Positions 16,227 through 31,726 of a stretch of DNA of 64,000 bases are shown here, in pieces. Numbering within the stretch: the first letter of the stretch is position 1; each line of letters starts with the position of its first letter. The notes beneath the pieces are model-generated. The model did not search any database. It had not been told where the DNA came from and saw only the letters and a list, made by a program, of their open reading frames with translations. The position numbers were made by a program, and so were the translations under genes. This DNA comes from Schmidtea polychroa. Lineage: Eukaryota. The stretch spans positions 16,928,001 to 16,992,000 of the forward strand of contig CM097885.1 of the NCBI GenBank assembly GCA_044892525.1, given 5' to 3'.

Positions 16227-16764
16227 GGTTACACAATATTATATTAAATAATTCTATAACTAATAAATTGTATAATATTTGTGGGAATTTTATCAAAATA
16301 ATTTCGACAAATTTAAATTATAATCGAATTCATCCGAATTGGATAAATTTTACAAATCTAAGGGGGTTAGACAATATTATATTAAATATTTCTACAATTT
16401 TTGTGATTGAAAATAAATTGGGAAATTTTATCAAAACTTGACGATTTTAAGAGCGGGATTAACTAAACGAGATACTTTTATATAATTTTATGTTTGAAGT
16501 CTAATGAATTGGTTAAAAGAGTTATACCTACAATCAAGTGAGAAGTTATGCTCGTTTCCCAAGGAGAAACGAGCACTTAATGACCTATTAGATGAAATTT
16601 TTCGCCCATACATTTCACAACAGTCTCTCTTTTTGGGCCTAAACTCAGTTTTTGCCCAATAGTATCGTTATGCTGTAAAAAATGAAACTTATAAGAAAAA
16701 GATTGAGACGAGTAAGTGAAAAATTTACCATGCTGGAAGTTTTAAGAATGAGAAAGGAATTGGT

Positions 16765-17097
16765 AGTAGTGAGGAATCTATGCACCCCAGCACCCCAACC
16801 CTCAAAAAAAACAGCGCTATTGACCCATATTTTCCACATTTATATGCTTTTTTACCCCATATTCTTCACTTTTTTTAACTTTTAAACTTTGTCCCCTATT
16901 GCCATTAACCCTTAATTTCTTCCCTTAAAAGTAAAAAAGTTCGGAATAGATGTATTTATAGATTAGTAATTCCGAGAAAAGGTAACGGGGTGCATAGATT
17001 CCTCACTACTTGGTCTTAAGGATTTAATGTTATAAGGATTTAATGTTATAAGAATATCAGATTACCTAATTCATAATGATCTAGGTCGCCTGATCAC
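16765..17097 (+). repeat. Maverick 1 left TIR (333 bp)
   Basis: Reverse complement of 31410-31726 plus one extra 16-bp tandem unit (TAAGGATTTAATGTTA). Confidence 0.95.
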
Positions 17098-17323
17098 CTT
17101 AAGGTTTTGAAAGTTTTAAAAATAAAAAATTTTATGAAAATAGTAAAACTGCTCTGAGGGGACAGTGGTATTTTTTTTTTTTTTTTTTTTTTTTTCACTG
17201 TCCCCTCAACAGTTTTTTTTGATCCGGATCATTTTTTTTTTTATTTATCAACCTCTTTCGTTTATCAAATCTCTTCCAATATACAAGCTGGCCAGACTCA
17301 TACATCAGAATCAATCCGATAAT

Positions 17324-17546
17324 AGCAGCACGCCTTATTATTCGCTTCTCGCTCACGAAGTCGATTTCAACGGCGTTTTAAGCGTGCTGCTCGAAAGTAC
17401 AAATGAATTCGAAAGCGAATCCGAAAGAGGTCCGAAAACAACCAAGAAATAAATGTGCACATTATAGAATCGATCCGGGGGTGTTCGAAAGACAGGTGGC
17501 GATAATTACCGGTTCGCCACCATCACCCGTTTCAATATTTTTTTTT
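17324..17546 (+). ncRNA. Candidate structured non-coding RNA
   Basis: GC-rich island with stems AGCAGCACGC/GCGTGCTGCT and GGTGGCGA/TCGCCACC, five CGAAA motifs, ending in a T-run. Confidence 0.45.
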
Positions 17547-17685
17547 TCATATTTATGTTTAAAAAATAATTAATTAATAAAAAAATAAAATAAAATAAAA
17601 TAAATAAAATAAAATATACAAGTACTTTATAAATATAAGATACCCACACTATTATTTTCAAATTTTTAATATTATTTTTATGTTG

Positions 17686-17767
17686 AAAAAAAACTAACCA
17701 CAGTTAGGATTTGAACCGCTATCTATTTGAACCACTGTGCCGGTCTAGCCCACTGCGCCATCAAGGT
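17686..17767 (-). ncRNA. tRNA-like Pol III unit 1
   Basis: A box TGGCGCAGTGG, B box GGTTCAAATCC at tRNA spacing, T8 terminator. Confidence 0.7.
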
Positions 17768-17926
17768 TTGAATTTTTGTCATTTTTTAGACTATAAATAA
17801 TCGATTCAAGTTAAAACGTTTTTGATCTTAAATTTCCAAGAGTTGCCGTTGACCAATCACCTTTAAAATTTGTACAAGTACTAAATCGAGTATGCTGATC
17901 AATATTTTGTTTAAAAAAAAAATTTG

Positions 17927-18007
17927 AAAAAAAATGACCGAAATAGGATTTGAACCCATTGGTATTGGCAATGCAGTCGAGTGCTATTACCACTAAGCTA
18001 TACTCAA
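17927..18007 (-). ncRNA. tRNA-like Pol III unit 2 (tRNA-Cys(GCA)-like)
   Basis: GTATAGCTTAGTGGTAATAGCACTCGACTGCA resembles the 5' half of eukaryotic tRNA-Cys; B box GGTTCAAATCC; T8 terminator; acceptor and anticodon stems do not pair well. Confidence 0.75.
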
Positions 18008-18160
18008 TATGAAATAAGTTGTTAATGTGTGACTATTTATTGATGAAATTAATAATTAATTATTCATTTTCTCGACAACTACCACTCAGATCCATCTGAA
18101 AATTGAAATATATACTAAAATCAGTACGCTGAATCAGATTCCGTTGAAAAAAAAATATCG

Positions 18161-18242
18161 AAAAAAATTGACCAAAATCGAAAATTGAACCCGGTACTCC
18201 CGGTGATAAAATTGAAGCCTATTCCCACTCCGCTATAATGGC
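18161..18242 (-). ncRNA. tRNA-like Pol III unit 3
   Basis: A box TAGCGGAGTGG, degenerate B box GGTTCAATTTT, T7 terminator. Confidence 0.6.
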
Positions 18243-18298
18243 TTACATAACATATTTAATTAATCCTATTGTGTGTGTCTAAATTTTAATATATAAAA

Positions 18299-19585
18299 AT
18301 GAATAATATAAAAATTCAAGAAAAAAATAAATTAAATCTTGATTATAATAAAGAATTTACTCATGAAATCAAGAAAAACGATGTACTTAAAATCTCCCCA
18401 ACTTCAGGATCTATTGCAAACTTAAATCGTAGGGGTGATATAGTTTTTCAATCTCTTCAAACATCAAACCCTATAGATATTTGTAATGCCAAATTATATT
18501 ATAAAATCGAATTAGAAATTGAAGCAAACAAAGATATAACCCTAGAAAATAATTTCTTTCCAAATTTATTCTCCAATATGAGATTAAAACTAGGATCATC
18601 AGAAATTGAAACTGTTTTACATCCGGGAGTATATTCTACAATGTTAAATTTTATTTTGACTGGTTGTGATTATAAAAATGAATATGGTGAATTAACAGGC
18701 TGGATTCCTGATGTTAATAAAGGAGATTTAGATAAAGATGGTTTAGATATAAATTATGGTTACTATAAAAGAGCTGAACTTTATAAATCTAAAAAATTTG
18801 AAGGTTATTTTGAATTAAAACACTTGTTTGGATTCCTTCAAAACTATAATCGTATACTTCATAATGTTTTTATAGAATTCATCTGTAATAGAGTAGAAGG
18901 TGATAAAAGATTGTTCTATGGAGCTGTAGATACAAAAGCTAAATTAAAATTATCAACACTTGAATTACATATACCTGAATGGACATTAAACCCACATTCT
19001 GAGATTAAACTCCTTGAAAGATTAAATTCCAACAAGTCTATAAATGTAAATTATTTAAATAGAATCTGTAGTGAATTTAGTATGACAGAGGGTTCAACAT
19101 ATTCTATAAAGGTAGCAAATTTAGCATACCGACCAAGATATATCTTGATTGGATTCAAAGAAGTAGATTCATCTTTCCAAAAAAATAACAACTTGTTTAT
19201 TCAAAAGATTGGAGTTGATAATTTAAAAACAATCCAAATTCAATTAAATAGTTCTTATTATCCAATAAATAGAATGGAATTTAATATTGAAAATAATGAA
19301 AACATATTCCCATATCTAAATTATATTGAAACATGTTATGATTTCAAAGTTGAACCGCAATTAAGTTTAGAAGATTTCAAAAATTTATATTCTATATTTT
19401 GTATAAATGTATCAGACCAAGATGATCGATTAGCCATAAATAATGTTGATGTTACACTTCATGTAACAAAGGATTCTAATTTTAAAGCTAAAGTATATAC
19501 ATTAATATTAGAAGAAAAGAAAATAGAAATGAAATTATATGGTGGAAAGATTTCAATAATCGAAAATGTTAGGGGAGATTCTTGA
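18299..19585 (+). CDS. Major capsid protein (double jelly-roll, hexon-like)
   Basis: 428 aa; Polinton MCP-like motifs NNFFPNLFSNMRLKLG..EIE, PRYILIGF, QLNSSYYP; genomic context. Confidence 0.8.
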   Translation: MNNIKIQEKNKLNLDYNKEFTHEIKKNDVLKISPTSGSIANLNRRGDIVFQSLQTSNPIDICNAKLYYKIELEIEANKDITLENNFFPNLFSNMRLKLGSSEIETVLHPGVYSTMLNFILTGCDYKNEYGELTGWIPDVNKGDLDKDGLDINYGYYKRAELYKSKKFEGYFELKHLFGFLQNYNRILHNVFIEFICNRVEGDKRLFYGAVDTKAKLKLSTLELHIPEWTLNPHSEIKLLERLNSNKSINVNYLNRICSEFSMTEGSTYSIKVANLAYRPRYILIGFKEVDSSFQKNNNLFIQKIGVDNLKTIQIQLNSSYYPINRMEFNIENNENIFPYLNYIETCYDFKVEPQLSLEDFKNLYSIFCINVSDQDDRLAINNVDVTLHVTKDSNFKAKVYTLILEEKKIEMKLYGGKISIIENVRGDS

Positions 19586-19614
19586 TATAATCCCTGATAT
19601 TTTAACATTTTAAA

Positions 19615-21023
19615 ATGTCTCTAAATAAATATTGGAGATGTGAAAGTTGTAATTGTCAAGTTACAAGACATCATAAAGCAAGCCATCTTAAAACTAAAAA
19701 ACATACAGTAGGTGACCTAATTCCACGAGCTGGAGGCGATTTGCAATCTTCAAAAACAACATCTTCAATATTAAAACCTTTTACTACAGAAAAATATCCA
19801 GGTGAAAGACATTTATTTAAACACAACTACACCGGACCAGGAACAAGATTAGATATTAGATTAGATGAAAATAATAATCCCAAACAAGGAGAAGAACCAA
19901 TAAATAGAATTGATCAAGCAGCTTTAAAACATGACATTGCATACAATTCAACAAATCTTAGAGATAGACATGTTGCAGATGTGAATTTAATACATGATTT
20001 AAATAGTATCCAAAATCCATCAACCCAAGAAAAGATTCAAAGAGCTCTAGTTAAATTAGCAATGAAAGGTAAGATTTTCATAGGCTTAGGACACAGTCCG
20101 ATCACCATGGGTGCAAGACTTCCTAGAATAGCAAAAGATGTTGCTTATAAAAAGATTATCGAACAAGCAGAGATTGAAAGATCCCTCGAGAGTACAGCCA
20201 AGACTAGTTTACAAACCCCAACAGAATCAGAAATAAAATATGCAAAGGAATTACACCATGAATTTAGAAAAAATAAAAAATATTTAAAAGTTCAAGTACA
20301 TGAAAAAGATCAAACATGGTCTGCAGATTTAGTCTTTATGCCCAAATCATCAGACCCTGAAAAATATAAAATAATTTTAACTGTAATAGATTTATATACA
20401 AGATTTGCTTTTGCAAGATGTTTAGAAAATAAAACAGGATATTCTATTACAGAAGCATTTGAAAATATATTTGAAGAAAATCAAAGAATCCCAAATATTT
20501 ATGGTGTGATAAAGGAACAGAATTTTATAACAAAGTTTTTACAAAGTTTTTAAATGAAAATGATATTAAATTATATTCAACAGAAAACGAAGGAAAAGCA
20601 GTCGTAGTTGAAAGATTAAATAGAACATTAAAAAATAAAATGTGGAAATATTTTACTGCTATTGGAAAACAAAAATGGAACAATGAATTGTTACAAAAGA
20701 TTGTAAATGAATATAATAATGATGTACATAGTTCTATAAAATTAACACCTTTAAATGCTTCCATGAAGCCTGAAACCATTAAAGTGGTAAATATTGAAAA
20801 TGATGTTATTGAAAAACCAAAGTTTAAAATTGGTGACCGAGTAAGAATATTTAAATATAAAAATAAATTTGAAAAAGGATTCACAGCAAAATGGACAAAT
20901 GAAATTTTTATTATAAATAAAATAAATTATACAACTCCAATAACATATAGCATCTTTGATTTAAATAATGAAAAAATATTAGGTAGATTTTATAATAATG
21001 AACTACAGAAAACAGATTTTTAA
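19615..21023 (+). CDS. Zn-finger / parvovirus-type PLA2 / retroviral-like integrase fusion, with a -1 frame change at about 20490-20496
   Basis: CESC...HLKTKKH; NYTGPG...IDQAALKHDIAY; WSADL, VIDLYTR; then in the -1 frame LWCDKGTEF and VERLNRTLK, running into ORF 20640..21023 (KFKIGDRVRI, FEKGFTAKWT). Confidence 0.9.
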
Positions 21024-21034
21024 GTCGACAAGCC

Positions 21035-21826
21035 CTAAAACAAACTTTTCCATATTTCAGCTTCTTCTCTATCCAAATAAATATAATTATATTTTTCTTT
21101 CCAATGATTATCAACAAACATATCAAACATATTCTTATCAGGTTCAACATTTGAAAATAAATCATTATAAATCATATTCTTATCACGGCGATCTAATTTA
21201 AAAAATATAAAACAATTGGAATTATTTCTTATTGAATTTTTATCTAAAGCATAATATGTTTGAGATATATAAATAACATTACAATTATTATGTCGACCTC
21301 GTGTAAAGTAACTCTTTTGAATCTCTTGATTTTTCATATTAACAACATCATCAAATATAACTAGATTCTTTTTATCTTTAGGAAGTAAATCACAATGTAA
21401 AACATCTTCAGGTTTATTAGAGAATAAAACTTGAATTGCCTCCTGCCCTTCTTCACAAATATAATCATTTTTATTACTAATATCTGATTCTAAAATCTTT
21501 TCCTTATACCAATCAACCATATCACAAGGTTGAAAAACTTCTTCAGGACACCTATGTTGATTTTTAAAAATATCAATTATTGCTTTTTTAGTTAATTTAT
21601 TTTCAAATCCACATTTCAAAAGTTGTAATTCTGGTTGATTTATGGTTGTAGAATAAAAGATTAAATTATTATAATCTAAAAAATCATCTTCAAGTAACAT
21701 TCTCAAAACAAGTACATTCTTTCCACATCCAGAAGAACCAACAATTAATAATCTAAAATTATCAGGAAATACTTTATTATTGAATTTACTCTTATGTCTA
21801 TTTAAAATTGGTTTCCAAGTATCCAT
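21035..21826 (-). CDS. Genome-packaging ATPase (A32/FtsK-HerA family)
   Basis: Walker A GSSGCGKN, Walker B VIFDD, RGRHNN..IYISQ. Confidence 0.93.
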   Translation of the reverse strand: MDTWKPILNRHKSKFNNKVFPDNFRLLIVGSSGCGKNVLVLRMLLEDDFLDYNNLIFYSTTINQPELQLLKCGFENKLTKKAIIDIFKNQHRCPEEVFQPCDMVDWYKEKILESDISNKNDYICEEGQEAIQVLFSNKPEDVLHCDLLPKDKKNLVIFDDVVNMKNQEIQKSYFTRGRHNNCNVIYISQTYYALDKNSIRNNSNCFIFFKLDRRDKNMIYNDLFSNVEPDKNMFDMFVDNHWKEKYNYIYLDREEAEIWKSLF

Positions 21827-21842
21827 TTTTATTTATTATAAA

Positions 21843-22451
21843 ATGACCTCGAAGAGTTCCTCTACTGAAGAATCTTTGCAAGAATTAATAAATTCAAATA
21901 AAAATAAATCAGTAGTAATTGATGGTAAAAAATATTTTATTGGAAAACATGTAAAAGAACAAGTTAGAGCGAAGCTCCACGAAGCTAAAGAAGGTGGCAT
22001 TCTTCCATTAGCTGCTTTAATTCCTGCAATCATTGCTGGTTTATCAGGTGCTGCTGGAATAGCTGGAGGAATTGCAACTACAGTTCAAAAAGCTAAAGAA
22101 TCTCAAAAGACAGACCTAGAAAAAGAAAAACTACAAACTGAAATCGATTCAATGAAGAAGGTAGGGCAAGCTAAAGGGGGAGTGTCCGTTGGAAAGGGTC
22201 TCTATCTTAATCCATATGAGGGGAGTCGGCAAAAGTCTCAGGGCAAAGGTCTCTATCTTGATTCTTATAAAGGTAGAGGTTTAAATGATTTTTTAAAAAA
22301 TCAAATTTCTACATCTGAATCTTTATCTTTAAAAGATAAAGAAGATTTAAAAAAAATATGTAAATCTTTAAAGAATGGATGTCTTTGTAAAACTAAAAAT
22401 GGCAAAGGTTTATACTTGAAGCCCTTTCCAACGGATCCTTTACAAAAATGA
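21843..22451 (+). CDS. Putative virion core / membrane-active protein (protein X-like)
   Basis: GG|ILPLAALIPAIIAGL amphipathic segment and three GKGLYL repeats; AAAATG start at 21843. Confidence 0.6.
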   Translation: MTSKSSSTEESLQELINSNKNKSVVIDGKKYFIGKHVKEQVRAKLHEAKEGGILPLAALIPAIIAGLSGAAGIAGGIATTVQKAKESQKTDLEKEKLQTEIDSMKKVGQAKGGVSVGKGLYLNPYEGSRQKSQGKGLYLDSYKGRGLNDFLKNQISTSESLSLKDKEDLKKICKSLKNGCLCKTKNGKGLYLKPFPTDPLQK

Positions 22452-22473
22452 TACCATTTTTAATACCATAAAA

Positions 22474-23343
22474 ATGGTATATGAAGAAAGATTAGCACTT
22501 TTAAAAAAATTACAATCAGAACAAGATAAATATAATAAAAAAGATACAAGTCAACATGCTGAATCTATAATATTAAATGAGGTAATAACACAACAACAGG
22601 GGCCAACAATTAAAGCTATAAAAGGATTAAATGAGCAAGCAAAATTTAAAGAGTTAGAAGATGGAGGAAGTCCCCATGAACAAAAAATAAAAAAACTAGA
22701 GTGGAAGGAAGAATCCAGTGAAAACCATCCTGAAAGAAATCAAAGAAAACGCAGAAGAATTTCTAATGCGGAAGAAGAAGAAGAAATGTTTTTAAAAACA
22801 AAACCTCTTAAAGTTGATCCTAAAATTAGAGATGATTTACCTCCTTCAATTAGACCCACATTTAATACTAATACTGAAGGATATCAAATAATAACAATTA
22901 ATAAACAAAACTTTACTTTATATTCAAATTCAGAAAATAAATCACGTATTCATTCACAAAATGTTTATAATAATGAATATTTAGACTTTGAATTTACAGA
23001 TGATTTTTATAAATTACTTTGTGGATATTCTTCGGATGATCTTGAAGAAATTAAAAAATATTTAAATTTAATAAGATTAATAAAAGCTAGTTCTAAAGCA
23101 AAATATATTCAAGATTTAAAGAATTATTTAAATAAAAATGAAAAGGGTTATGTTGTTACAGAGGGAGAGGGATTAATTAGTGAAGGAAATCCCATCAATC
23201 TTTTTATTGAATTAAGAAAACTATTAGCTGCAAGGAAAGCAGGACATAATAATTTAGATTCTGATATTTTAAAGATTTCTAAAGATTTGTTAAAACAAGG
23301 AATAATTTCAAAAGATAAATTTAATAAGTATACGAAGTTATAA
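22474..23343 (+). CDS. Polinton protein of unknown function
   Basis: Intact 289-aa ORF; C-terminal GEGL...LLAARKAGHNN...LLKQGII motif of the kind seen in Polinton core proteins. Confidence 0.6.
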   Translation: MVYEERLALLKKLQSEQDKYNKKDTSQHAESIILNEVITQQQGPTIKAIKGLNEQAKFKELEDGGSPHEQKIKKLEWKEESSENHPERNQRKRRRISNAEEEEEMFLKTKPLKVDPKIRDDLPPSIRPTFNTNTEGYQIITINKQNFTLYSNSENKSRIHSQNVYNNEYLDFEFTDDFYKLLCGYSSDDLEEIKKYLNLIRLIKASSKAKYIQDLKNYLNKNEKGYVVTEGEGLISEGNPINLFIELRKLLAARKAGHNNLDSDILKISKDLLKQGIISKDKFNKYTKL

Positions 23344-23365
23344 ATACGAAGTTATAAAATACAAA

Positions 23366-23830
23366 ATGACTCCTTCAATATTAGATTTTTTAAAAACATT
23401 TGGAATAAATGCAAAAACAAATTTTGATTTAAAAGATTATGCAAATTATTTAAATTTAAAAATTAAAATATTAATGAATGATGAATTATCAAGTCTGGAG
23501 AGTCCCCTGAATATAATAATCAATTATCAAAATTCAAATGAAAAAGGATCTCATTGGGTTTGTATATATAAGAAATCTATCTACTTTGATTCTTTTGGGA
23601 TTAAACCTACTAAAGAAGTTGAAGATTATCTCTTGAGGGGTTCTCCGATTGATTCCCCAAATGGTTATACTTTTAACTCTTTACAAGTTCAACCTTTGAA
23701 TACTAAAATATGTGGTATTTTAAGTTTATATGTTTTGTATAGATTGAATAAGGGAGAGGGAAAGGGGCATACGCAGGATTTTGAATCTATAATTCAAGAA
23801 ATTTATAATGATCTAGAATCTCTACTATAA
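23366..23830 (+). CDS. Adenain-like cysteine protease
   Basis: GSHWVC, YFDSFG, QVQ...ICG catalytic motifs. Confidence 0.92.
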   Translation: MTPSILDFLKTFGINAKTNFDLKDYANYLNLKIKILMNDELSSLESPLNIIINYQNSNEKGSHWVCIYKKSIYFDSFGIKPTKEVEDYLLRGSPIDSPNGYTFNSLQVQPLNTKICGILSLYVLYRLNKGEGKGHTQDFESIIQEIYNDLESLL

Positions 23831-23878
23831 GGATTTTTACTATAAGGATTTTTACTATATGAATTTACTACTAAAGAA

Positions 23879-24643
23879 ATGGAGCTTCACAACCCTCCGG
23901 AAGATAATTTAAAAAAAATGGTAAACATAATGTCAGATAAATATTCAAGAACTTTATCTATAAATTCAAAAGAATCAGAGTTTACTATAAACTTTCAAGA
24001 TTCAATTAAATTAGATCAAAATTTAAATTATGAATTGGGGCTATTATGGTTTTGTGCTTATAATACTATTTTTAATATAACTAAAGATAATAATAAATTT
24101 ACTATTCAAACTCGTGATGGGCATAAACCAGAAATTATAACAATAGAACCTGGGGCATATGAGATAAAAGATTTAAATGATATACTTTCTAAAAAAACAA
24201 ATGAAGGAATTAAAATTAAAATGGATATACCAACTTCAAAATGTGTAATGACTTTGAAGAATATAAAAATTAGTTTTTTAGATAATTGTTTCTTTCACAC
24301 AGTTTTAGGATTTAAACCTATGGATATAACAATAAAAGAAGATAAAATAATAACATCAGAACATATTATAAAAATAATAAATACAAACACAATAAATATT
24401 CATTGCGATTGTATAACAGGTTCTTATAATAATGGTAAACAAACAAATGTTTTATATTCCTTTCCCTCAAACACAGTTCCTATGGGATATAAAATAGTTG
24501 AAAGAATGAATCCTCCAAATTATTTACCTTTATGTAGAAAATATATAATGGATATTAATTTTAAAATTCTTAATCAAGAAGGAGAATTGATTGATTTTAA
24601 TGGAGAAGAGATTTCAATGTATTTACATTTGAAACAGGTTTGA
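23879..24643 (+). CDS. Minor capsid protein (penton-like)
   Basis: IEPGAYEI, INIHCDCITGSY, LYSF, NQEGELIDFNGEEI motifs; position after the protease. Confidence 0.82.
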   Translation: MELHNPPEDNLKKMVNIMSDKYSRTLSINSKESEFTINFQDSIKLDQNLNYELGLLWFCAYNTIFNITKDNNKFTIQTRDGHKPEIITIEPGAYEIKDLNDILSKKTNEGIKIKMDIPTSKCVMTLKNIKISFLDNCFFHTVLGFKPMDITIKEDKIITSEHIIKIINTNTINIHCDCITGSYNNGKQTNVLYSFPSNTVPMGYKIVERMNPPNYLPLCRKYIMDINFKILNQEGELIDFNGEEISMYLHLKQV

Positions 24644-24667
24644 AGATTCATTTTAAATTATTAATAA

Positions 24668-25678
24668 ATGAGTTCTTATATTCCATGTAATAGAGGTGGT
24701 GGAACAATAAAAACAGGGTTTAATACAGAAGAAATATTAACTTTAACAGAAAATAAATATATTAATGAAAGAGGTGATTCAATGAAGGGTGATTTAATTT
24801 TAAATGGACACAAGATAAAAGAATTATCTTTTCCAACTGATGAAGCTGATGCAGTTAATAAGAAATATGTAGATGGTGTTAAAAAATATACTGATTTAAC
24901 AACAACAAGAATTGAAAGTTCATTAACAACAAAAATTGATTCAATGGAATCAAAGCTTAATAATATCGAACAACGATTTAATGATAAATTTGACAAGTTA
25001 CAAAGTCTGTTAACTGAACAAGTTGTAAAGTTAAATACTGCTATATTAAATTCTAAAGATAAACAAATTATGAATACTAAATTTAATGCAATATATAATA
25101 TAATAAATGAGATGATTACATCATTTAATAAAAGAATTTCAAATTTAGAGTCTCATGGAACACACATTAACACCACACATAGTATTAGAAAAAGAGCTGC
25201 TGAATTAGAACAGAATAAAACATTATTACCCCATACATATAAACATTTTATAGAACCAAGTTTAATAACAACAAACAGTAAAGAATGGGGTGTTTTTATG
25301 GTTGTAAAAATTATTGATCCTTATTTCTTTTTATTTGATGATGATAATGAAAGAATGAAATGGTTTGTGAAATGTGATTATAATAGTAAGCTTGAAAAGG
25401 GTGATGTTATAATGACTAGTTATGATTTACCACACGGAGATTGGTATGTTAATACTCATTCACATGGACTACATAAAGTTAAAAGTAAGAATATTCATTT
25501 TTCTAGTTCACTTGTACAATATATAGATTTAATATTTTATGAAAAAAAGGTTGATGTTGATGAAGTTCGTAAAGCATTGAGAGAATTGTATAAAGACATC
25601 CTCTCAACAAGATTTTCTTTTGATATCCGAGTATTGGTGCCAGGTGGTGCTCAGAAGAATAAAGTCTTATTTTTTTAA
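24668..25678 (+). CDS. Putative fibre/spike-like protein
   Basis: GDSMKGDL...IKEL..PT..DAVNKKYVD neck-type motif, coiled-coil stretch, globular C-terminus. Confidence 0.55.
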   Translation: MSSYIPCNRGGGTIKTGFNTEEILTLTENKYINERGDSMKGDLILNGHKIKELSFPTDEADAVNKKYVDGVKKYTDLTTTRIESSLTTKIDSMESKLNNIEQRFNDKFDKLQSLLTEQVVKLNTAILNSKDKQIMNTKFNAIYNIINEMITSFNKRISNLESHGTHINTTHSIRKRAAELEQNKTLLPHTYKHFIEPSLITTNSKEWGVFMVVKIIDPYFFLFDDDNERMKWFVKCDYNSKLEKGDVIMTSYDLPHGDWYVNTHSHGLHKVKSKNIHFSSSLVQYIDLIFYEKKVDVDEVRKALRELYKDILSTRFSFDIRVLVPGGAQKNKVLFF

Positions 25679-25686
25679 TTATTAAA

Positions 25687-26283
25687 ATGGAAGAAGTAAG
25701 AGAAGAAAAAATTTACCCAGAATTGAGATCATCAGGATATTATTCTTCCAAGGCCTCGGCTCCCACAGAACTTGAAATTATGAGAGTAAAAGAATTTAAA
25801 TCAGAAACCTTACATTTACAAGATTTATTAAAGCATTATAAAAAAATTAAAAATAGATGGAATAAAGGGAATACAGTTTTAAAAGTTATAGGTTATTCTT
25901 TAGGATTTGCATCTGCAATATTAACAGTTATTTTACCCATAACTTTACCAGTTTTAACACTTGCGCCAGTAATACTTGGAAGTATTTCTGTAGCTGATGG
26001 TTTCTTAACTGAAATAGTTTCATTATCTTATACTTCTAAAAAGAAAAGTTTATATAGAGAAGTTTGTTTATCAATAGAATTAGGAATCTCTAAATTATTT
26101 TTATTTCAATTAAAAGCTTTGGAAGATGGAATCCTGACAGACGAAGAAATAATGAAATCAAATCAAATAATACAAGATATAAAGAATGAGGTTATAAGAT
26201 TAAAAAGGGAGGGCATGGTGGCTAATGTTATAAGTAATAAAAAAACATCTCGAGAAAAATGGTTAAAGAATTCTTACTTATAA
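25687..26283 (+). CDS. Membrane protein of unknown function
   Basis: Intact 198-aa ORF with a central hydrophobic hairpin. Confidence 0.65.
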   Translation: MEEVREEKIYPELRSSGYYSSKASAPTELEIMRVKEFKSETLHLQDLLKHYKKIKNRWNKGNTVLKVIGYSLGFASAILTVILPITLPVLTLAPVILGSISVADGFLTEIVSLSYTSKKKSLYREVCLSIELGISKLFLFQLKALEDGILTDEEIMKSNQIIQDIKNEVIRLKREGMVANVISNKKTSREKWLKNSYL

Positions 26284-26377
26284 AATGGGTGTATTTTTAA
26301 AAAAGTAGATCAGGTTGCTATAGTTGCTTAAATTAATTGTCGACATTTTATTATTAAAAAATTAAATATCGTTGGTT

Positions 26378-26932
26378 TCAGTTATGGTTGAAAGCCAACC
26401 TATGAATCATTAATTTATGATCTTTAAATTCTTTATCACTTAGACCTTTCATATATTCAGGATCAGTATTAAAATATTTAAGTTCTAAACATATAGGATT
26501 AAAAACTTGAGAATATAAAGGTTTCTCGATTTCTCTCTCGGGATAAATAATTTCAACATTATAAATATCAAGATCAGTAATCTTTGTATCATATAACTTA
26601 TTCAACTTTTCTAGATTTTTTATTATAGGGATTAAATTATTTCCAATAGGTAGAGTTGTCTTTAAATCACTTAGTATGAATCTCTTATCATCATAATTTG
26701 ATAATGATACTTTTTGAGATTCTATCAAGTGAATATCATGGTTTTCACTTTTAAGTTGATGTATTTCATCAATTTTATCTTTATGATTTGGATTCAATGT
26801 ATCTATATAATCTTGATGAGAAAGATTCTTTGCAACCACTCTCTGTATTCCTTTACATCTGTTATCCTTTAAATTAGTAATATTTTTTATAATTTCAAAA
26901 ATGTTATTTTCTTGATTTTTAGTTTCCATCAT
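26378..26932 (-). CDS. Stand-alone paralogue of the pPolB C-terminal domain
   Basis: Aligns to the last about 170 aa of the adjacent pPolB (KGIQ, NYDDKRFILSDLKTTLPIGN, ELKYFNTDPEY); has its own AAAATG. Confidence 0.85.
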   Translation of the reverse strand: MMETKNQENNIFEIIKNITNLKDNRCKGIQRVVAKNLSHQDYIDTLNPNHKDKIDEIHQLKSENHDIHLIESQKVSLSNYDDKRFILSDLKTTLPIGNNLIPIIKNLEKLNKLYDTKITDLDIYNVEIIYPEREIEKPLYSQVFNPICLELKYFNTDPEYMKGLSDKEFKDHKLMIHRLAFNHN

Positions 26933-26956
26933 TTTATAGTGTTAAAATTCTAATTC

Positions 26957-29900
26957 TTAGACCAGTCGTAATTGATTTATAATTATTTCTGCAGTAATGC
27001 TTTTTAACATTAATTTATGTGATTTAAAGTCTTCTGGTGTTAGTCCTTGGATATATTCAGGATCAGTATTAAAATATTTAAGTTCTATAGGTTTTATATT
27101 TTGAACTTGATTATATAAAGGTTTAGGAATTAATATTTCAGGATATTGGATTTCTACTTTAGCAAGTTGAAGGTCTGTAATCTCTAGGTTATAAATTTCA
27201 TTTATTTTATCAAGATTTTTTATTATAGGGATTAAATCATTTCCAATAGGTAATGTTGTCTTCAAGTCAGAAAGTATAAATCTTTTATCATCATAATTTG
27301 TTATAGCAATCTTGTTACACTCTTCAAGATATATATTATGTTTCTCTGATTTAAGATGATGGGTTTTAGCAATTTTATTTTTATAATTTATATTTAATGA
27401 ATCTTTATACTCTTGATGTGTGAAGGTTTTTGACACTGATTTTTGAATTCCTTTACTTTTATTTTCTTTATAGCTTTTCGGGTTTTCAGGGAATGAAGGA
27501 TATTCAAATGTGTGATCTATTTCAACAGATCCTTCTCCCTCCCCTATTATAAATTTTATTGTATGCTCTTTCATAATTGGTTTGTCTTTCATTTCAAGAG
27601 AATATTGTTTAGGTCTAATAAACACTCCTCCACTTATTGGAGTATTTGGTTTTTCATCTTTAAAAGTAAATAATTCTCCAGAGTTGTTTATTAATTTATT
27701 TAAGGTTTCGTTTTCACTTATTTCCTTTTTTAAATCTTTACTATGACCTTTTAAAAACATACTATCAGTGTCCATAGCATGCATGGATATTCGATCTCCA
27801 AAATGTGGTACTAGAACATCATAGTAGGCTTCATACATTTGAAGCTTTGAAAGTTCTAAAATTGAAAACCCTATAAAGATTGGTTTATTATAAGTTTTTA
27901 CAGAGTTTTTAATCTCTATGGCTATAAGGTTACTAGAGAATATCTCGGCATTTTTAAATGTGGGCTTTCCAATTATCCGGTTGTACCTATTAAGGTCTTT
28001 GGATGTATTGGTCAAAAGCTCTACACGTGTGTACTTGTCTATATTCTCCATGGTCTTTCCAAAGACCGCATTGTTCAGGAGTTTGTAAATCATATCAAGA
28101 AATGCATTTCCAGCTCTCTTTGCTGCATTTCTTTTCAAAATATTTCCCTCTATGAATTTTTTCATAAAAGGGGCTTGTCGAAATTTAATAATGGAATGTA
28201 CTTTTTTTAAAACCATTCCATGGGAGAGATAAAACTGAAGGAGTCTATAATGACAAAGGTAATCAGTTTTATCGGTCTGATCGCATAAAAGTTTTATACA
28301 GGGCGATCTATCCTGAGCCATCTGCCAGTCTGAAAGTTCTTCAGTCGAGATCTTTCTTCTTACTGGAGCAAATGGAAAGAATCTTGTCCTGGATTTTATT
28401 TCATTGGGATATTCAAGATCGCATTCTATGACATATCCAAATTGAGAATCTTTTGGTGTTTTTAGAATTTCTTGTATTAATTCCTCAGTGGGCTCTTCCC
28501 AGGTGAACTTGCCAATTGGAAGGTATTGAGTCATTACTCCCGCATATAAAGCTGTTGCATCTATATACATTATTTCAGAAGGATTAGAAAGACCTTCCAT
28601 TATTTCCTTACGATCTTCTGGGTTTGTTATTTCTACATATAGAGCATCAGGATCTTTGAAAAATTTAGGATAAAGAGTTGTAAAATTATTAGCATTTATT
28701 TCTCTATTCCCTTGTACTGAAGAAATACCTCCTCTAATATTATGTTTATATACATTAAACATATCAAGCTCAACTAATAATTCAATAGTTTTATTTCTTA
28801 CTGCTACATCTTCATCAGTCCATATGGTATATAATAATATATCCCAAGCTAGAGAGGGAGCGGTTATATAATTATAAGGTTTTAATTCAAAAGCTTTTGA
28901 AAATGTCTCGAAGCAATCAGCTAAGATATAAACATCCAAGGAAAGATACATGTCAGTATATTCTCCAAGGTTTCTACAGTTGAATAGATTCCACATTTTA
29001 ACTGCACGGGAATATTCCTGATCAGAAATCCCTGATTGTGTTAAAACAGAAAAGAAATCTTCTTGGGGTGGGAGTAATTCATTATATTTTTCAAAGGAGT
29101 CTATATAATCATATGGATAGATTCCTTTTGCTAGACAGGTATTATATTCCTCTAATGGAATATTGTTTTTTAATAACACATGTTCTTTTGTATATTTAAA
29201 ATCCTCAGGGTTCATAGTTTTAGCAATCCCATCCAAAGACATCCCTAAGAAATTTAACGAGTCCAAAAACTTAAAGCATCCATATTGAATGCTTTTATAT
29301 TTTTCTTTTGTAAGTCCAATAACCTTGAAAGAGTTTTTAGCATTTGCGGCCAGATGCTTAATGAATAGGTGAATATCATAGCCAAAAAGATTGTGAAATA
29401 TAAATGGTATGTGTGTTGGTTTTTTACAATTGAGATTACATTTTTTATGGGCTGCTCCTCTGTAATTATTTTCTCTTTTAAAATGATCATGGTCTGCAAC
29501 CTTTGGCTCCTCATCCTCAAACTCTTGTTTACACATCCAGCAGTGTGTTGCATTTTTATATTCTTCCTCTTGTTCTTCTGAAAAATTCATAGGAAAGTTG
29601 GATTTTAATATTATATATAATTCATGTTCTAGATTATTTAAAGTTTTAACAAAATGATCTAGAGTCTCTTTGTCAGAAGTTCCTCTAAATGAATATTCTC
29701 TAGATTCTACAAGTTCTGGATAATTACTTTTAAAAAACATTTTATAAGCAGAGGGTATTTGTTTTGTTAGTTTTACAGTATTAGTTTTTGTTCGTCTTAG
29801 TTTTACATTTATAGCTTCAAAATCACAATAAACCACTCCCAATGCTTCTAATAGATTGGAATAGTTTTTAAACCTCATATTAGCATTTTTCTTGTGTGGC

Positions 29901-31336
29901 ATTTTTATTAAAGCAGGTTGATTCTTACAACAGAGTCTCTCATGTTTAATAGCAGCAAGTTTTGAACTTGAATGATATAAACATCTTTTACAACATATGC
30001 CTCCACGAATGAGTGTGTTTCCTTTCATAAAACTTTGAAAATTCTTTATTAAGATATAATGAAGTTTTTTATCTAACATAGTGCCTCCGGACGCAGTGCT
30101 TTCTGCTTCTGGTTCTAATGAAATGCCTTCTTCTGCTTCTCTCCTCGGGTGAACGCTTTGAACCTCTTCACCATATTCTTCTCCATCAAAGTCTTCATCT
30201 GGTTTACCTTCTTCTAATATTAAAAGATCTACTTCTCTCTTTTCATCTGAGATTTCCATGTTAGAAATGTAAATAGGAATAATGTGTTTATAATTTTTAT
30301 TTTTTCTAGTTTTTGTAATTTTGGTTGGAATGAATTGATAAATATTAATTTTAAGATTATTTAATTTTTCAAATGCTGGAACATCTTCAATTTTCATTGG
30401 GTGGGAAAAATCTTTTGGATAAATTAATTCAGATTCATATTCTTCATATTTTTGAACTCTCTGTGGGTTAGTTGCTTGAGGATGTAAGTGTGCAAGTATT
30501 GACCATTGAAAACATTTATTATCTTTATTCTGTACATTAATAACATGGTTGGAGGTGAATGGTGTGTGAATAAAAGATTTAGGATTTGGTGGTGCGCCTC
30601 TCCAGTATTCAATCTCTATATTTTGAAAAGAGTGGAATCTTAAATTAGATTCTCCTAGTTCTTGTTCCACCTGTTCTTGTTTTTCTTCCAATTCTTTAGC
30701 TATATCATTAACAAGTTTATTTCCTGCTTTTGTAGAAAATAAATATTTATATGAGGTTTCAATTTTTACATCTAGAGGCATTGCGATTGAATCATCTCCT
30801 CTCCAGTATTTTGCATTTCCTGTAAATTTAACTTTTATAACATTAAATCTTGATCTACCAAATTTTTTTATAGCATCATCCATTGATGATATTATTTTTT
30901 TTTTATTTTCTCTTATATATTGCATGATTGATCTGGGTCCTCGTTTTACTTCTGCAATTACATCGGTGTGATTGAAGTCATCCCAATTAAACTCTAGTTT
31001 TTCAGCTTTTTCAGTCATTGAGTTTGAATCAGAATCTTTTGCTTCAAGACCACAATCTTCTATGTGTCTTAAGTAAAAAGATTTTATCCTCATCGTTTTT
31101 CCACATGCTGAACATTCGAATATTTCTCTGTTTTTAGGAACTCCAATACAATTTTTAAAATGCTTCTTATAACCTGAAAATAAATATCTATCCTTACATT
31201 TAGTACAGATTTTGGAATTAGTGTCATCTAGTGTGTTAGCTTTTATTAAATGGTCTTTTGATTTTTTATGAGATGTTAAAGCAGTTTTATTTTTAAAATT
31301 TTTTTCACAAATTTCACAATTGAAAATAGCTTCCAT
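26957..31336 (-). CDS. polB: Protein-primed family B DNA polymerase with N-terminal zinc fingers and an endonuclease VII-like insert
   Basis: YCDFE, FHNLFGYD, KGIYPY, YIDATALY, KLLNNAVFGK, DTDS; CWMC...DHDH...AHKKCN; intact 1459 aa. Confidence 0.97.
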   Translation of the reverse strand: MEAIFNCEICEKNFKNKTALTSHKKSKDHLIKANTLDDTNSKICTKCKDRYLFSGYKKHFKNCIGVPKNREIFECSACGKTMRIKSFYLRHIEDCGLEAKDSDSNSMTEKAEKLEFNWDDFNHTDVIAEVKRGPRSIMQYIRENKKKIISSMDDAIKKFGRSRFNVIKVKFTGNAKYWRGDDSIAMPLDVKIETSYKYLFSTKAGNKLVNDIAKELEEKQEQVEQELGESNLRFHSFQNIEIEYWRGAPPNPKSFIHTPFTSNHVINVQNKDNKCFQWSILAHLHPQATNPQRVQKYEEYESELIYPKDFSHPMKIEDVPAFEKLNNLKINIYQFIPTKITKTRKNKNYKHIIPIYISNMEISDEKREVDLLILEEGKPDEDFDGEEYGEEVQSVHPRREAEEGISLEPEAESTASGGTMLDKKLHYILIKNFQSFMKGNTLIRGGICCKRCLYHSSSKLAAIKHERLCCKNQPALIKMPHKKNANMRFKNYSNLLEALGVVYCDFEAINVKLRRTKTNTVKLTKQIPSAYKMFFKSNYPELVESREYSFRGTSDKETLDHFVKTLNNLEHELYIILKSNFPMNFSEEQEEEYKNATHCWMCKQEFEDEEPKVADHDHFKRENNYRGAAHKKCNLNCKKPTHIPFIFHNLFGYDIHLFIKHLAANAKNSFKVIGLTKEKYKSIQYGCFKFLDSLNFLGMSLDGIAKTMNPEDFKYTKEHVLLKNNIPLEEYNTCLAKGIYPYDYIDSFEKYNELLPPQEDFFSVLTQSGISDQEYSRAVKMWNLFNCRNLGEYTDMYLSLDVYILADCFETFSKAFELKPYNYITAPSLAWDILLYTIWTDEDVAVRNKTIELLVELDMFNVYKHNIRGGISSVQGNREINANNFTTLYPKFFKDPDALYVEITNPEDRKEIMEGLSNPSEIMYIDATALYAGVMTQYLPIGKFTWEEPTEELIQEILKTPKDSQFGYVIECDLEYPNEIKSRTRFFPFAPVRRKISTEELSDWQMAQDRSPCIKLLCDQTDKTDYLCHYRLLQFYLSHGMVLKKVHSIIKFRQAPFMKKFIEGNILKRNAAKRAGNAFLDMIYKLLNNAVFGKTMENIDKYTRVELLTNTSKDLNRYNRIIGKPTFKNAEIFSSNLIAIEIKNSVKTYNKPIFIGFSILELSKLQMYEAYYDVLVPHFGDRISMHAMDTDSMFLKGHSKDLKKEISENETLNKLINNSGELFTFKDEKPNTPISGGVFIRPKQYSLEMKDKPIMKEHTIKFIIGEGEGSVEIDHTFEYPSFPENPKSYKENKSKGIQKSVSKTFTHQEYKDSLNINYKNKIAKTHHLKSEKHNIYLEECNKIAITNYDDKRFILSDLKTTLPIGNDLIPIIKNLDKINEIYNLEITDLQLAKVEIQYPEILIPKPLYNQVQNIKPIELKYFNTDPEYIQGLTPEDFKSHKLMLKSITAEIIINQLRLV

Positions 31337-31409
31337 TTTTAAAAGAATCTTTTGGTTGGATACGATGTTTTGGTTTTGATATTAATTTTTATTTTTTTTA
31401 AATCTAAAA

Positions 31410-31726
31410 GTGATCAGGCGACCTAGATCATTATGAATTAGGTAATCTGATATTCTTATAACATTAAATCCTTAAGACCAAGTAGTGAGGAATCTATGCA
31501 CCCCGTTACCTTTTCTCGGAATTACTAATCTATAAATACATCTATTCCGAACTTTTTTACTTTTAAGGGAAGAAATTAAGGGTTAATGGCAATAGGGGAC
31601 AAAGTTTAAAAGTTAAAAAAAGTGAAGAATATGGGGTAAAAAAGCATATAAATGTGGAAAATATGGGTCAATAGCGCTGTTTTTTTTGAGGGTTGGGGTG
31701 CTGGGGTGCATAGATTCCTCACTACT
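31410..31726 (-). repeat. Maverick 1 right TIR (317 bp)
   Basis: Inverted match to the left end. Confidence 0.95.

What the first reader, a model, noticed from the sequence alone, without database searches (positions are those of the whole stretch)
17686..18242. Array of three tRNA-like Pol III genes inside a Maverick/adintovirus (possible VA-RNA analogue)
Seen: three minus-strand units of about 80 nt, starting 240 and 235 bp apart, each with A box, B box and T7-8 terminator in tRNA geometry, while the sequence between the boxes differs. Unit 2 resembles tRNA-Cys(GCA), but the cloverleaf stems are broken. The array lies inside the TIR/TSD-bounded element, divergent from the capsid gene. Known: adenovirus VA RNAs and murine gammaherpesvirus tRNA-like TMERs are Pol III transcripts of DNA viruses. 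Inference: this Polinton encodes its own small Pol III RNAs, or uses them as TFIIIC-bound insulators. I know of no description of this in Mavericks.
Basis: partly seen in the sequence, partly recalled or inferred. Interest (0 to 1): 0.88.

Follow-up and report, generated by a model that had tools for sequence, protein, structure and literature searches.

The report
tRNA-derived Pol III cassettes in Maverick
A very abundant virus-like Maverick transposon carries, just inside its end, a row of worn-down tRNA gene copies that keep exactly the signals RNA polymerase III needs, and the innermost one is joined to a conserved, strongly folded non-coding RNA, which suggests the element makes its own small RNAs as some animal viruses do.

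Summary
Three minus-strand units (A boxes at 18235, 18000, 17760) carry the only exact A-box matches in the 64-kb window. Each also has a B box 43-44 nt on and a T7-T8 run where a tRNA would end (3 found, 0.03 expected). None is a working tRNA.

The array belongs to the Maverick (16764-31727). It recurs with the same flanks in every near-identical copy examined.

It is part of something larger. A fourth, more degenerate unit (17519-17435) is followed by a ~300-nt strongly folded region (17434-17136). Unit 3, unit 4 and this region form a subterminal module found about 2,800 times in the genome, often at both element ends and pointing outward. The module is conserved across subfamilies whose terminal repeats no longer align. 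Its common stem variants keep base pairing, and only on the units' strand. Units 1-2 are a younger addition, partly derived from tRNA-Cys.

Best reading (about 0.4): Maverick-borne Pol III units, with unit 4 driving a structured RNA comparable to VA RNA or gammaherpesvirus TMERs. Transcription is not shown. TFIIIC-bound boundary elements or decaying relics remain possible. I found no description of this in Mavericks.

The parts
16764..31727 (.). Maverick/Polinton-type element that holds the array
   Evidence: TIR pair 16764-17107 / 31727-31400, 94.5% over 344 bp. TTGG flanks both tips. Pfam finds a DJR capsid, a PLA2-like domain plus integrase core, an A32-type ATPase and pPolB.
16764..17107 (.). 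Left terminal inverted repeat
   Evidence: The copy boundary at 16764/16765 is shared by 18 of 19 other loci.
18161..18246 (-). Unit 1: tRNA-derived cassette with A box 18235-18225, B box 18191-18181 and T7 18167-18161
   Evidence: As RNA it folds no better than shuffles (z 0.24).
17927..18010 (-). Unit 2: tRNA-Cys(GCA)-like cassette with A box 18000-17990, B box 17956-17946 and T8 17934-17927
   Evidence: Rfam tRNA 23.4 bits here and 26.7-33.8 bits in sister copies. 28 of 32 positions of its 5' half equal host tRNA-Cys.
17686..17772 (-). Unit 3: truncated tRNA-like cassette with A box 17760-17750, duplicated B box 17733-17723 and 17717-17707, and T8 17693-17686
   Evidence: Present in 28 of 30 sampled module loci.
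17435..17535 (-). Unit 4 (new here): degenerate tRNA-like cassette with A-like box 17519-17509, anticodon-loop-like CTTTCGA 17491-17485, B-like box 17476-17466 and T4 17438-17435
   Evidence: Present in 29 of 30 sampled loci. 0 of 11 A-like box sites carry a shared variant.
17136..17434 (-). Conserved structured non-coding region after unit 4. Long hairpins lie at 17391-17324, 17322-17262 and 17216-17145 (A-rich loop), and it ends in T4 runs.
   Evidence: MFE -139.7 kcal/mol with z -7.8 on this strand, against -110.1 with z -4.9 on the other.
17786..17810 (-). Remnant (last 25 nt) of a small ~73-codon ORF that is intact in sister subfamilies between units 2 and 3
18299..19585 (+). Major capsid protein gene, divergent from the array
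   Evidence: Pfam PF21738 DJR-like domain, 7.7e-26.

Best explanation
The three units are real, tRNA-gene-derived RNA polymerase III type-2 cassettes, each with an internal A box, a B box at tRNA spacing and a T-run terminator. They belong to the Maverick and have lost tRNA function.

They are the outer part of a four-unit array that lies between the capsid gene and the terminal repeat and points outward. The two units nearest the terminus (3 and 4), together with a ~300-nt highly folded region fused behind unit 4, form an old subterminal module of this Maverick clade. In many copies the module sits at both ends.

Inferred mechanism: TFIIIC binds the boxes, and Pol III makes short oligo-U-ended RNAs from units 1-3. 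From unit 4, by read-through of a weak T4, it makes a longer structured RNA of about 400 nt. That RNA would be the functional product, analogous to adenovirus VA RNA or gammaherpesvirus TMERs.

Shown: the anatomy, membership in the element, conservation, and strand-specific maintenance of base pairing.
Inferred: transcription by Pol III, read-through of the T4, and any function of the RNA.
For: 1. Geometry.
- Exact A boxes occur only at the three units in 64 kb.
- The joint pattern gives 3 hits against 0.03 expected.
- The A-to-B offset is 44, 44, 43 and 43 nt for units 1 to 4.
- T7-T8 runs start 11-13 nt after each B box, where a tRNA would end.

2. Boxes are kept while tRNA stems are lost.
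- The best unit 2 variant has an intact T stem but 3 of 5 anticodon-stem pairs broken.
- ARAGORN finds none of the units but does find host tRNA-Cys.

3. The array is part of the element.
- 40 of 40 scored genomic matches are full-length at 99-100% identity.
- 18 of 19 loci share the flanks from the TIR tip to the capsid gene.

4. The module is widespread and fixed in place.
- An invariant 24-mer of the module occurs 2823 times in the genome; its control occurs 0 times.
- Of 30 loci taken in positional order, 28 have unit 3 and 29 have unit 4.
- The inward neighbour is the capsid gene in 14 and the pPolB N-terminus in 11.
- 19 outward-facing pairs, 13-20 kb apart, occur among the first 100 hits.

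5. Conservation.
- The terminal repeats beyond the module do not align between subfamilies.
- Unit 4 plus the folded region carries 29 shared against 205 rare alleles. The AT-rich spacer carries 65 against 139 (odds ratio 0.30, p 8e-7).

6. RNA-type structure on the units' strand.
- z is -7.8, against -4.9 for the other strand.
- In 91 copies, all 7 stem pairs that have a second state in at least 11 copies keep a standard pair in both states. Two change on both sides (G-C to A-U). Five switch between G-U and a Watson-Crick pair.
- 9270 of 9403 pair cells are paired.
- The 25-bp hairpin holds nine G-U pairs, which would be A-C mismatches on the other strand.
Against: - There is no evidence of transcription. 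No sequencing run on record as RNA holds the stretch.
- Units 1, 2, 3 and 4 on their own do not fold better than shuffles (z 0.24, -1.9, 1.28, -0.37).
- Units 1-2 are absent from 7 of 14 capsid-side ends sampled, so they are dispensable.
- For unit 3 the contrast of shared against rare alleles between boxes and non-box sites is not significant (p 0.74). Without the anchored A box, the per-site contrast is borderline (3 of 19 against 25 of 59 sites, p 0.053).
- No compensatory change supports an acceptor stem in unit 3.
- A conserved T4 lies between unit 4 and the folded region. Host tRNA-Cys genes are followed only by T3/T4 runs, so Pol III may stop before the folded region.
- The covariation signal is modest: 2 pairs with changes on both sides, covariation score 0.035 against 0.030 in shuffles. 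All sequences come from one genome.
- Distant relatives from metagenomes (capsid 33-52% identical, 11 loci, mostly short) show no tRNA-like unit.
Confidence: 0.4

Rival explanations
1. DNA-level boundary element. The boxes are kept because TFIIIC (with or without Pol III) bound at the element's ends shields its genes from flanking chromatin or from read-through transcription, as tDNA insulators and extra-TFIIIC sites do. The short RNAs are by-products.
For: - The cassettes sit exactly between the terminal repeat and the first inward gene, at one or both ends: capsid gene in 14 and pPolB in 11 of 30 loci.
- The RNAs of units 1-3 show no stable fold, while boxes, spacing and terminators are intact.
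- Clusters of two to four cassettes occur in tandem.
Against: - It does not explain the ~300-nt folded region behind unit 4. That region's common variants keep base pairing only on one strand, a property of an RNA rather than of a protein-binding DNA site.
- No binding data exist.
Confidence: 0.2
2. Neutral relics. One or more host tRNA genes, perhaps a piece of a tandem tRNA array, were captured once, decayed, and are carried along by a recently amplified element without any function.
For: - The host has a tandem array with about 999 pattern matches to tRNA-Cys(GCA) at a 281-bp period. The Maverick array has a 235-241-bp period.
- The 5' half of unit 2 equals host tRNA-Cys at 28 of 32 positions.
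- The stems are broken.
- Units 1-2 are dispensable.
- Most copies are 98-100% identical, so little time has passed for selection to show.
- The shared-against-rare contrast for unit 3 is not significant.
Against: - Decay is uneven. A boxes remain exact, the A-to-B offset is 43-44 nt and long T-runs remain, while anticodon and acceptor stems are lost.
- Units 3 and 4 and the folded region persist in 28-29 of 30 loci, across subfamilies whose terminal repeats and spacer have diverged beyond alignment.
- The spacers of the Maverick array do not match the host array.
Confidence: 0.2
3. The conserved subterminal region acts in cis on the DNA or on a Pol II transcript, for example as a packaging signal, a replication or integration auxiliary site, or a leader. 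The tRNA-like features are incidental.
For: - Its position directly inside the terminal repeats at both ends is where linear protein-primed viruses keep cis signals. That is general knowledge of adenoviruses, recalled.
- Conservation stops sharply at the last hairpin.
Against: - The strand asymmetry of the fold and the G-U-rich helices fit an RNA of the units' strand.
- The box geometry of four successive units is unlikely to be incidental.
Confidence: 0.12
4. A host tRNA-derived SINE inserted into one ancestral copy and was then amplified with it.
For: - The units are tRNA-like heads.
- A-rich tracts follow unit 4.
Against: - Unit 2 alone gives 649 first-look candidates, fewer than the capsid gene (4944) or the module 24-mer (2823 matches).
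- 25 of 30 module loci have a Maverick capsid or polymerase gene as inward neighbour and 1 has other Maverick genes. The remaining 4 still carry units in Maverick order.
- No target-site duplications flank the units.
- Units 1-3 end in T-runs directly after a tRNA-length body, with no SINE body or tail.
Confidence: 0.03

Closest known systems
Murine gammaherpesvirus 68 TMERs (tRNA-miRNA-encoded RNAs)
   Same: A cluster of virus-borne, non-decoding tRNA-like genes with internal Pol III type-2 promoters near one genome end. Each has a tRNA-like 5' part followed by hairpins and a T-run (PMC8223928, passages read). Unit 4 plus the hairpins at 17391-17324 and 17322-17262 has this layout.
   Different: There is no sequence similarity. 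Units 1-3 have no hairpins. Here the hairpins are enclosed in a larger multi-branch fold and are separated from unit 4 by a T4. The host and virus lineage differ. Expression and processing are untested.
Adenovirus VA RNA genes
   Same: A Pol III gene with internal A and B boxes (listed as type 2 in PMC8223928, Table 1) that encodes a highly structured RNA. It is carried by a linear dsDNA virus with a double-jelly-roll capsid and protein-primed PolB, the lineage to which adintoviruses and Mavericks are related (PMC8502044, abstract).
   Different: The candidate RNA is about 400 nt, against about 160 nt for VA RNA (recalled). It is subterminal and often duplicated in both repeats. No Rfam family matches it. 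Nothing is known of any PKR-type target.
tRNA genes of polinton-like viruses, virophages and other mid-size linear dsDNA viruses
   Same: tRNA-related genes inside members of the wider Polinton-like group. 558 tRNAs were found in 8300 PLV/virophage genomes (PMC12220804, passages). tRNA genes are flagged in Fig. 6 of PMC8502044 (legend).
   Different: Those are called by ARAGORN or Rfam and are interpreted as decoding tRNAs. The units here fail ARAGORN, have broken anticodon stems and keep only promoter and terminator features.
Pol III-driven miRNA cassettes in foamy virus long terminal repeats
   Same: Pol III units placed in the terminal repeats of an integrating virus (PMC7693620, PMC3993851, PMC7104284; abstracts only).
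   Different: Those are retroviruses with hairpin-only (dumbbell) precursors and no tRNA-like head.
tRNA-derived SINEs, and tDNA or extra-TFIIIC insulator sites
   Same: Degenerate tRNA heads that keep A and B boxes. Clustered TFIIIC sites that act on chromatin (recalled knowledge).
   Different: The units here are not dispersed on their own. They have no SINE body or tail. Insulator activity is untested.

Membership tests
tRNA gene (Rfam RF00005) | Score at or above the Rfam gathering threshold (29 bits), or a call by a tRNA finder | tested here: not met
   Window: unit 2 scores 23.4 bits; units 1, 3 and 4 have no hit; ARAGORN finds 0. A sister variant of unit 2 reaches 32.4-33.8 bits in L032, L035 and 4 of 20 sampled loci. 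ARAGORN still finds 0 in the sister loci given to it (L032, L035 and five others).
tRNA gene (Rfam RF00005) | Intact cloverleaf, including the anticodon stem | tested here: not met
   The best unit 2 variant has 3 of 5 anticodon-stem pairs and 2 of 7 acceptor pairs non-standard. Units 1 and 3 fold no better than shuffles.
Pol III type-2 (tRNA-type) transcription unit | Internal A box and B box at tRNA spacing | tested here: met
   A boxes are exact in units 1-3. B boxes are exact in units 2-3 and have 2 mismatches in unit 1. Unit 4 has 2 and 1 mismatches. Offsets are 44, 44, 43 and 43 nt.
Pol III type-2 (tRNA-type) transcription unit | Oligo-T terminator just after the gene body | tested here: met
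   T7, T8 and T8 start 11-13 nt after the B box in units 1-3. Units 1-2 have a second T-run. Unit 4 has only a T4.
Pol III type-2 (tRNA-type) transcription unit | Transcribed by Pol III and bound by TFIIIC | not testable with these tools
   No run on record as RNA holds the stretch. No ChIP data are at hand.
tRNA-derived SINE | Dispersed solo copies with their own target-site duplications and a 3' body or tail | tested here: not met
   The units occur with Maverick flanks. Unit 2 gives 649 candidates, against 4944 for the capsid gene. Units 1-3 end at a T-run after a tRNA-length body. The low-identity tail of genomic hits could not be listed.
TMER-like viral tRNA-hairpin RNA | A tRNA-like 5' part followed by pre-miRNA-size hairpins and a terminator in one Pol III unit | tested here: inconclusive
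   Unit 4 is followed by 68-nt and 61-nt hairpins and a terminal hairpin with T4. However, a T4 intervenes, and transcripts and small RNAs are unknown.
Adenovirus VA RNA | Sequence or structure homology to VA RNA | tested here: not met
   No Rfam family reaches its threshold anywhere in the window. Only chance-level hits appear at E up to 10.
Maverick/Polinton element | Terminal inverted repeats, protein-primed PolB, retroviral-type integrase, double-jelly-roll capsid and A32-type ATPase | tested here: met
   The target-site duplication seen is only 4 bp (TTGG), shorter than the 5-6 bp I recall for the group.

The most novel reading that the evidence does not exclude
An animal Maverick clade encodes its own Pol III-transcribed, roughly 400-nt structured RNA. 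The RNA is driven by a tRNA-derived internal promoter and placed in the subterminal part of one or both terminal repeats, with extra tRNA-like Pol III units beside it. It would be the polintovirus counterpart of adenovirus VA RNA or gammaherpesvirus TMERs, used to manipulate host RNA-sensing or silencing pathways. This would suggest that such Pol III RNAs are an old trait of the adenovirus-Polinton lineage, or are repeatedly invented from captured tRNA genes.
Probability: 0.3. Interest if true: 0.8.

Novelty: new variant of a known kind. Interest (0 to 1): 0.62.

Why it matters
Virus-encoded Pol III RNAs (VA RNAs, EBERs, TMERs, the miRNA cassettes of foamy virus and bovine leukaemia virus) are key tools of persistence and immune evasion. 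So far they are known only from a few vertebrate viruses.

Mavericks and adintoviruses are the integrating relatives of adenoviruses, and almost nothing is known about how they are expressed or how they escape silencing. A conserved, tRNA-promoted structured RNA next to their termini would give a concrete, testable handle on both questions: northern blot, small-RNA sequencing and Pol III ChIP in a species with thousands of near-identical copies.

It would also show how captured tRNA genes are turned into promoter cassettes.

If the boxes instead act as TFIIIC boundaries, this would be a case of a DNA transposon that carries its own insulators.

Tried and rejected
**RNA evidence.**
- No RNA holder is listed.
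- I laid Logan contigs of three small runs guessed to be RNA (X1-X3) and one large run (X5) on 16700-22500.
- Contigs of X1-X3 cover parts of the module. One X3 contig spans 17352-17535, across unit 4 and the first long hairpin. One X1 contig continues 73 nt beyond 17121 into another subfamily's terminal repeat.
- The runs are not on record as RNA, and contig depth cannot rank parts. I draw nothing on expression from this.
- Two X2 contigs end in A-runs that are not in the genome at 22108 and 22130. That only hints that X2 is RNA.

**Known families.**
- Rfam at gathering thresholds finds 0 hits in the window.
- Permissive scans of 17300-18600 and 16950-17600 give only chance-level snoRNA and miRNA hits besides the unit 2 tRNA hit.

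**Relatives elsewhere.**
- The capsid protein found nothing in viral contigs. A 27-mer of unit 4 also found nothing there.
- 11 metagenome loci with capsids 33-52% identical hold no tRNA by ARAGORN or Rfam. My relaxed box pattern gives one dubious hit, in L028. Most of these contigs are too short to include element ends.

**Selection on the unit 3 boxes.**
- The shared-against-rare allele contrast is not significant (p 0.74).
- A first whole-module alignment of 91 copies misaligned unit 3. I used it only for unit 4 and the folded region.
- The haplotypes show no covariation for a unit 3 acceptor stem.

**Recent capture of a host tandem tRNA-Cys repeat.**
- Rejected: only the 5' half of unit 2 matches, and the spacers do not.

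**Link to the 7SL head reported earlier in this genome.**
- No SRP hit appears in 20 module loci.

**Literature.**
- No held paper combines adintovirus with VA RNA (0 papers).
- The 10 papers that hold Polinton plus 'polymerase III' are, by title and abstract, general reviews or unrelated.
- The top 20 of 167 papers and the 2 papers do not describe Pol III genes in Polintons.
- Subscription journals and Repbase entries were not searchable.
Full report
**1. What is there**

On the minus strand between the capsid gene and the left terminal repeat lie three units of about 80 nt. Their A boxes are at 18235-18225, 18000-17990 and 17760-17750.

- They are the only exact matches to the tRNA A-box consensus TRGCNNAGTGG on either strand of the 64-kb window.
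- Each has a B box whose start lies 44, 44 and 43 nt after the A-box start.
- Each has a run of 7-8 T beginning 11-13 nt after the B box, the place where a tRNA gene ends.
- The joint pattern occurs 3 times, against a mean of 0.03 (maximum 1) in 100 block shuffles.
- Units 1 and 2 each have a second T-run a few bases further on.
- The unit starts are 235 and 240 nt apart.

None is a tRNA.

- ARAGORN finds nothing in the window, although it calls host tRNA-Cys genes in this genome.
- Rfam finds nothing at gathering thresholds.
- Only unit 2 matches the tRNA model: 23.4 bits against a threshold of 29, with a GCA loop.
- As RNAs, units 1-3 fold no better than shuffled sequence (z 0.24, -1.9, 1.28).

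**2. It belongs to the Maverick**

- The element spans 16764-31727. It has 344-bp terminal inverted repeats (94.5% identity), with TTGG on both flanks.
- It encodes a double-jelly-roll capsid, a PLA2-like domain plus integrase core, an A32-type ATPase and a protein-primed PolB.
- In the 781-Mb genome, all 40 scored matches to the 575-nt array are full-length at 99-100% identity, out of 2098 first-look candidates.
- In 18 of the 19 other loci fetched, the match runs from the TIR tip at 16764/5 through the array into the capsid gene at 98-99% identity.
- Unit 2 alone gives 649 candidates. That is fewer than the capsid gene's 4944, so it is not a dispersed SINE head.

**3. The array is larger and modular**

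The spacers of units 1 and 2 are related (109 of 171 positions), while their inter-box parts are not (19 of 36).

A fourth unit follows 241 nt after unit 3.
- A-like box 17519-17509, with 2 mismatches.
- An anticodon-loop-like CTTTCGA.
- B-like box 17476-17466, with 1 mismatch and an offset of 43 nt.
- Only a T4, at 17438-17435.

Ten sister loci, found with a distant capsid query, show how the parts combine.
- 2 loci look like the window.
- 4 loci have an intact small ORF of about 73 codons between units 2 and 3. The window keeps only its last 25 nt, at 17810-17786.
- 2 loci have the small ORF with units 3 and 4 but no units 1-2.
- 1 locus has unit 3 next to the capsid gene.
- 1 locus (capsid 92% identical) has unrelated DNA.

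Units 3 and 4 are therefore old, and units 1-2 are a later addition.

Unit 2 derives from a tRNA-Cys(GCA)-type gene.
- Its 5' half equals the host tRNA-Cys at 28 of 32 positions. The spacers do not match the host's 281-bp tandem tRNA-Cys array.
- A sister variant of unit 2 reaches 32.4-33.8 bits in L032, L035 and 4 of 20 sampled loci. It still has 3 of 5 anticodon-stem pairs broken.

**4. The conserved subterminal module**

Behind unit 4 lies a non-coding stretch of about 300 nt (17434-17136). It ends in a long hairpin with an A-rich loop, followed by T4 runs.

- An invariant 24-mer from it occurs 2823 times in the genome; its control occurs 0 times.
- I took 30 loci in positional order rather than by similarity. 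Of these, 28 carry unit 3 and 29 carry unit 4 upstream of the 24-mer.
- The inward neighbour is the capsid gene in 14, the pPolB N-terminus in 11, other Maverick genes in 1, and nothing recognisable in 4.
- Among the first 100 hits, 38 form 19 outward-facing pairs 13.2-20.3 kb apart. Many elements therefore carry the module at both ends, pointing to the termini. The window's copy has it only on the left.
- Beyond the last hairpin, the terminal repeats of the subfamilies cannot be aligned at all.

Conservation in a 91-copy sample:

| Region | Sites | Shared alleles | Rare alleles |
|---|---|---|---|
| Unit 4 plus folded region | 324 | 29 | 205 |
| AT-rich spacer between units 3 and 4 | 160 | 65 | 139 |

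The odds ratio is 0.30 (p 8e-7). The spacer is harder to align, which inflates its count somewhat.

**5. Evidence for an RNA**

- The stretch 17545-17110 folds to -139.7 kcal/mol on the units' strand (z -7.8). The other strand gives -110.1 kcal/mol (z -4.9).
- RNAalifold on 39 distinct copies predicts 105 pairs, and 99.3% of the cells are paired. Two pairs show changes on both sides, in 22 cells against 8.0 in shuffles, with 0 of 500 shuffles as high. The covariation score is only 0.035 against 0.030.
- In 91 copies, all 7 stem pairs that have a second state in at least 11 copies keep a standard pair in both states. Two change from G-C to A-U, with G-U intermediates. Five switch between G-U and a Watson-Crick pair. 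Broken states occur in at most 5 copies.
- The 25-bp hairpin (17322-17262) contains nine G-U pairs, which would be mismatches on the other strand.

This is moderate, strand-specific support for a structured RNA in the same sense as the tRNA-like units. All sequences come from one genome, and the structure was derived from them, so the support is not strong. No Rfam family matches.

**6. How it most likely works**

Shown: four tRNA-derived cassettes keep Pol III promoter geometry and terminators but not tRNA structure. The inner two, plus a folded RNA-like region, are conserved at the element's ends.

Inferred: TFIIIC and Pol III transcribe them outward. Units 1-3 give short oligo-U RNAs. Unit 4, if its T4 is leaky, gives an RNA of about 400 nt that contains two pre-miRNA-size hairpins.

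The layout is closest to gammaherpesvirus TMERs and, in principle, to adenovirus VA RNA (PMC8223928, passages).

Weak points:
- There are no transcripts.
- The T4 between unit 4 and the fold may terminate transcription. Host tRNA-Cys genes are followed only by T3/T4.
- Units 1-2 are dispensable: they are absent from 7 of 14 capsid-side ends.
- For unit 3, boxes have fewer shared variants than neighbouring sites (4 of 30 against 25 of 59, p 0.008). However, the A box was my search anchor. Without it the contrast is 3 of 19 against 25 of 59 (p 0.053). The shared-against-rare contrast is null (p 0.74).

Rivals are a TFIIIC-bound boundary element, neutral relics of captured tRNA genes, another cis signal, and, now unlikely, a nested SINE.

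**7. Novelty**

- tRNA genes are known in polinton-like viruses and virophages: 558 in 8300 genomes (PMC12220804, passages). They are also flagged in related mid-size viruses (PMC8502044, figure legend).
- I found no paper in the held library that describes Pol III cassettes or a VA/TMER-like RNA in Mavericks or adintoviruses.

I rate it a new variant of a known kind: a real and interesting feature whose function is unproven.

Noticed in passing
L072-L077 (own genome, contig C1 near 269.25 Mb): The host carries a huge tandem array of intact tRNA-Cys(GCA) genes with a 281-bp period. A D-arm/anticodon-arm pattern matches 999 times (821 + 178), and ARAGORN calls the genes.
   Followed up: partly
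own genome, contig C2 near 31.93 Mb: There is a tandem array of full-length 7SL (SRP) RNA genes with a 593-bp period (240 bits each). The genome holds 3808 first-look candidates for the family.
   Followed up: no
L032:3240-3480 region and sister loci; window 17786-17810: Sister subfamilies carry an intact ORF of about 73 codons, lysine/glutamate-rich and coiled-coil-like, on the same strand as the units, between units 2 and 3. The window's subfamily has deleted all but its last 25 nt.
   Followed up: partly
window, 60 nt upstream of each ORF between 18299 and 31336: Nearly every element ORF has its ATG directly preceded by an A-rich run (AAAATG), and most have an ATTTT motif about 15-20 nt further upstream. 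This looks like a compact virus-type promoter or leader motif with almost no 5' UTR.
   Followed up: no
window 60399-64000: A second, truncated copy of the same element is 99.97% identical to 24167-27768. It starts in mid-element, so it lacks the array end within the window.
   Followed up: no
window 26408-26818 vs 27008-27418: A 75% identical direct repeat links the 184-codon ORF (26378-26932, minus strand) to the 3' part of the pPolB ORF. This suggests a partial duplication of the polymerase C-terminus.
   Followed up: no
window 19615-20553: This ORF combines a parvovirus-type phospholipase A2-like domain (PF08398, 2.6e-09) with the start of an integrase core (PF00665, below its cut-off). 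The integrase may continue in the next ORF.
   Followed up: no
L024:5436-5515 (metagenome relative, capsid 50% identical): A hairpin matches Rfam mir-754 at 48.6 bits (E 7e-07, below the gathering score of 84). It lies about 2 kb upstream of the capsid gene.
   Followed up: no
L032-L071, beyond the last hairpin of the module: Subfamilies that share the internal module at about 90% identity or more have terminal repeats that cannot be aligned with each other. Their pPolB N-termini are only about 50-56% identical to the window's. This points to modular recombination among Maverick lineages.
   Followed up: partly
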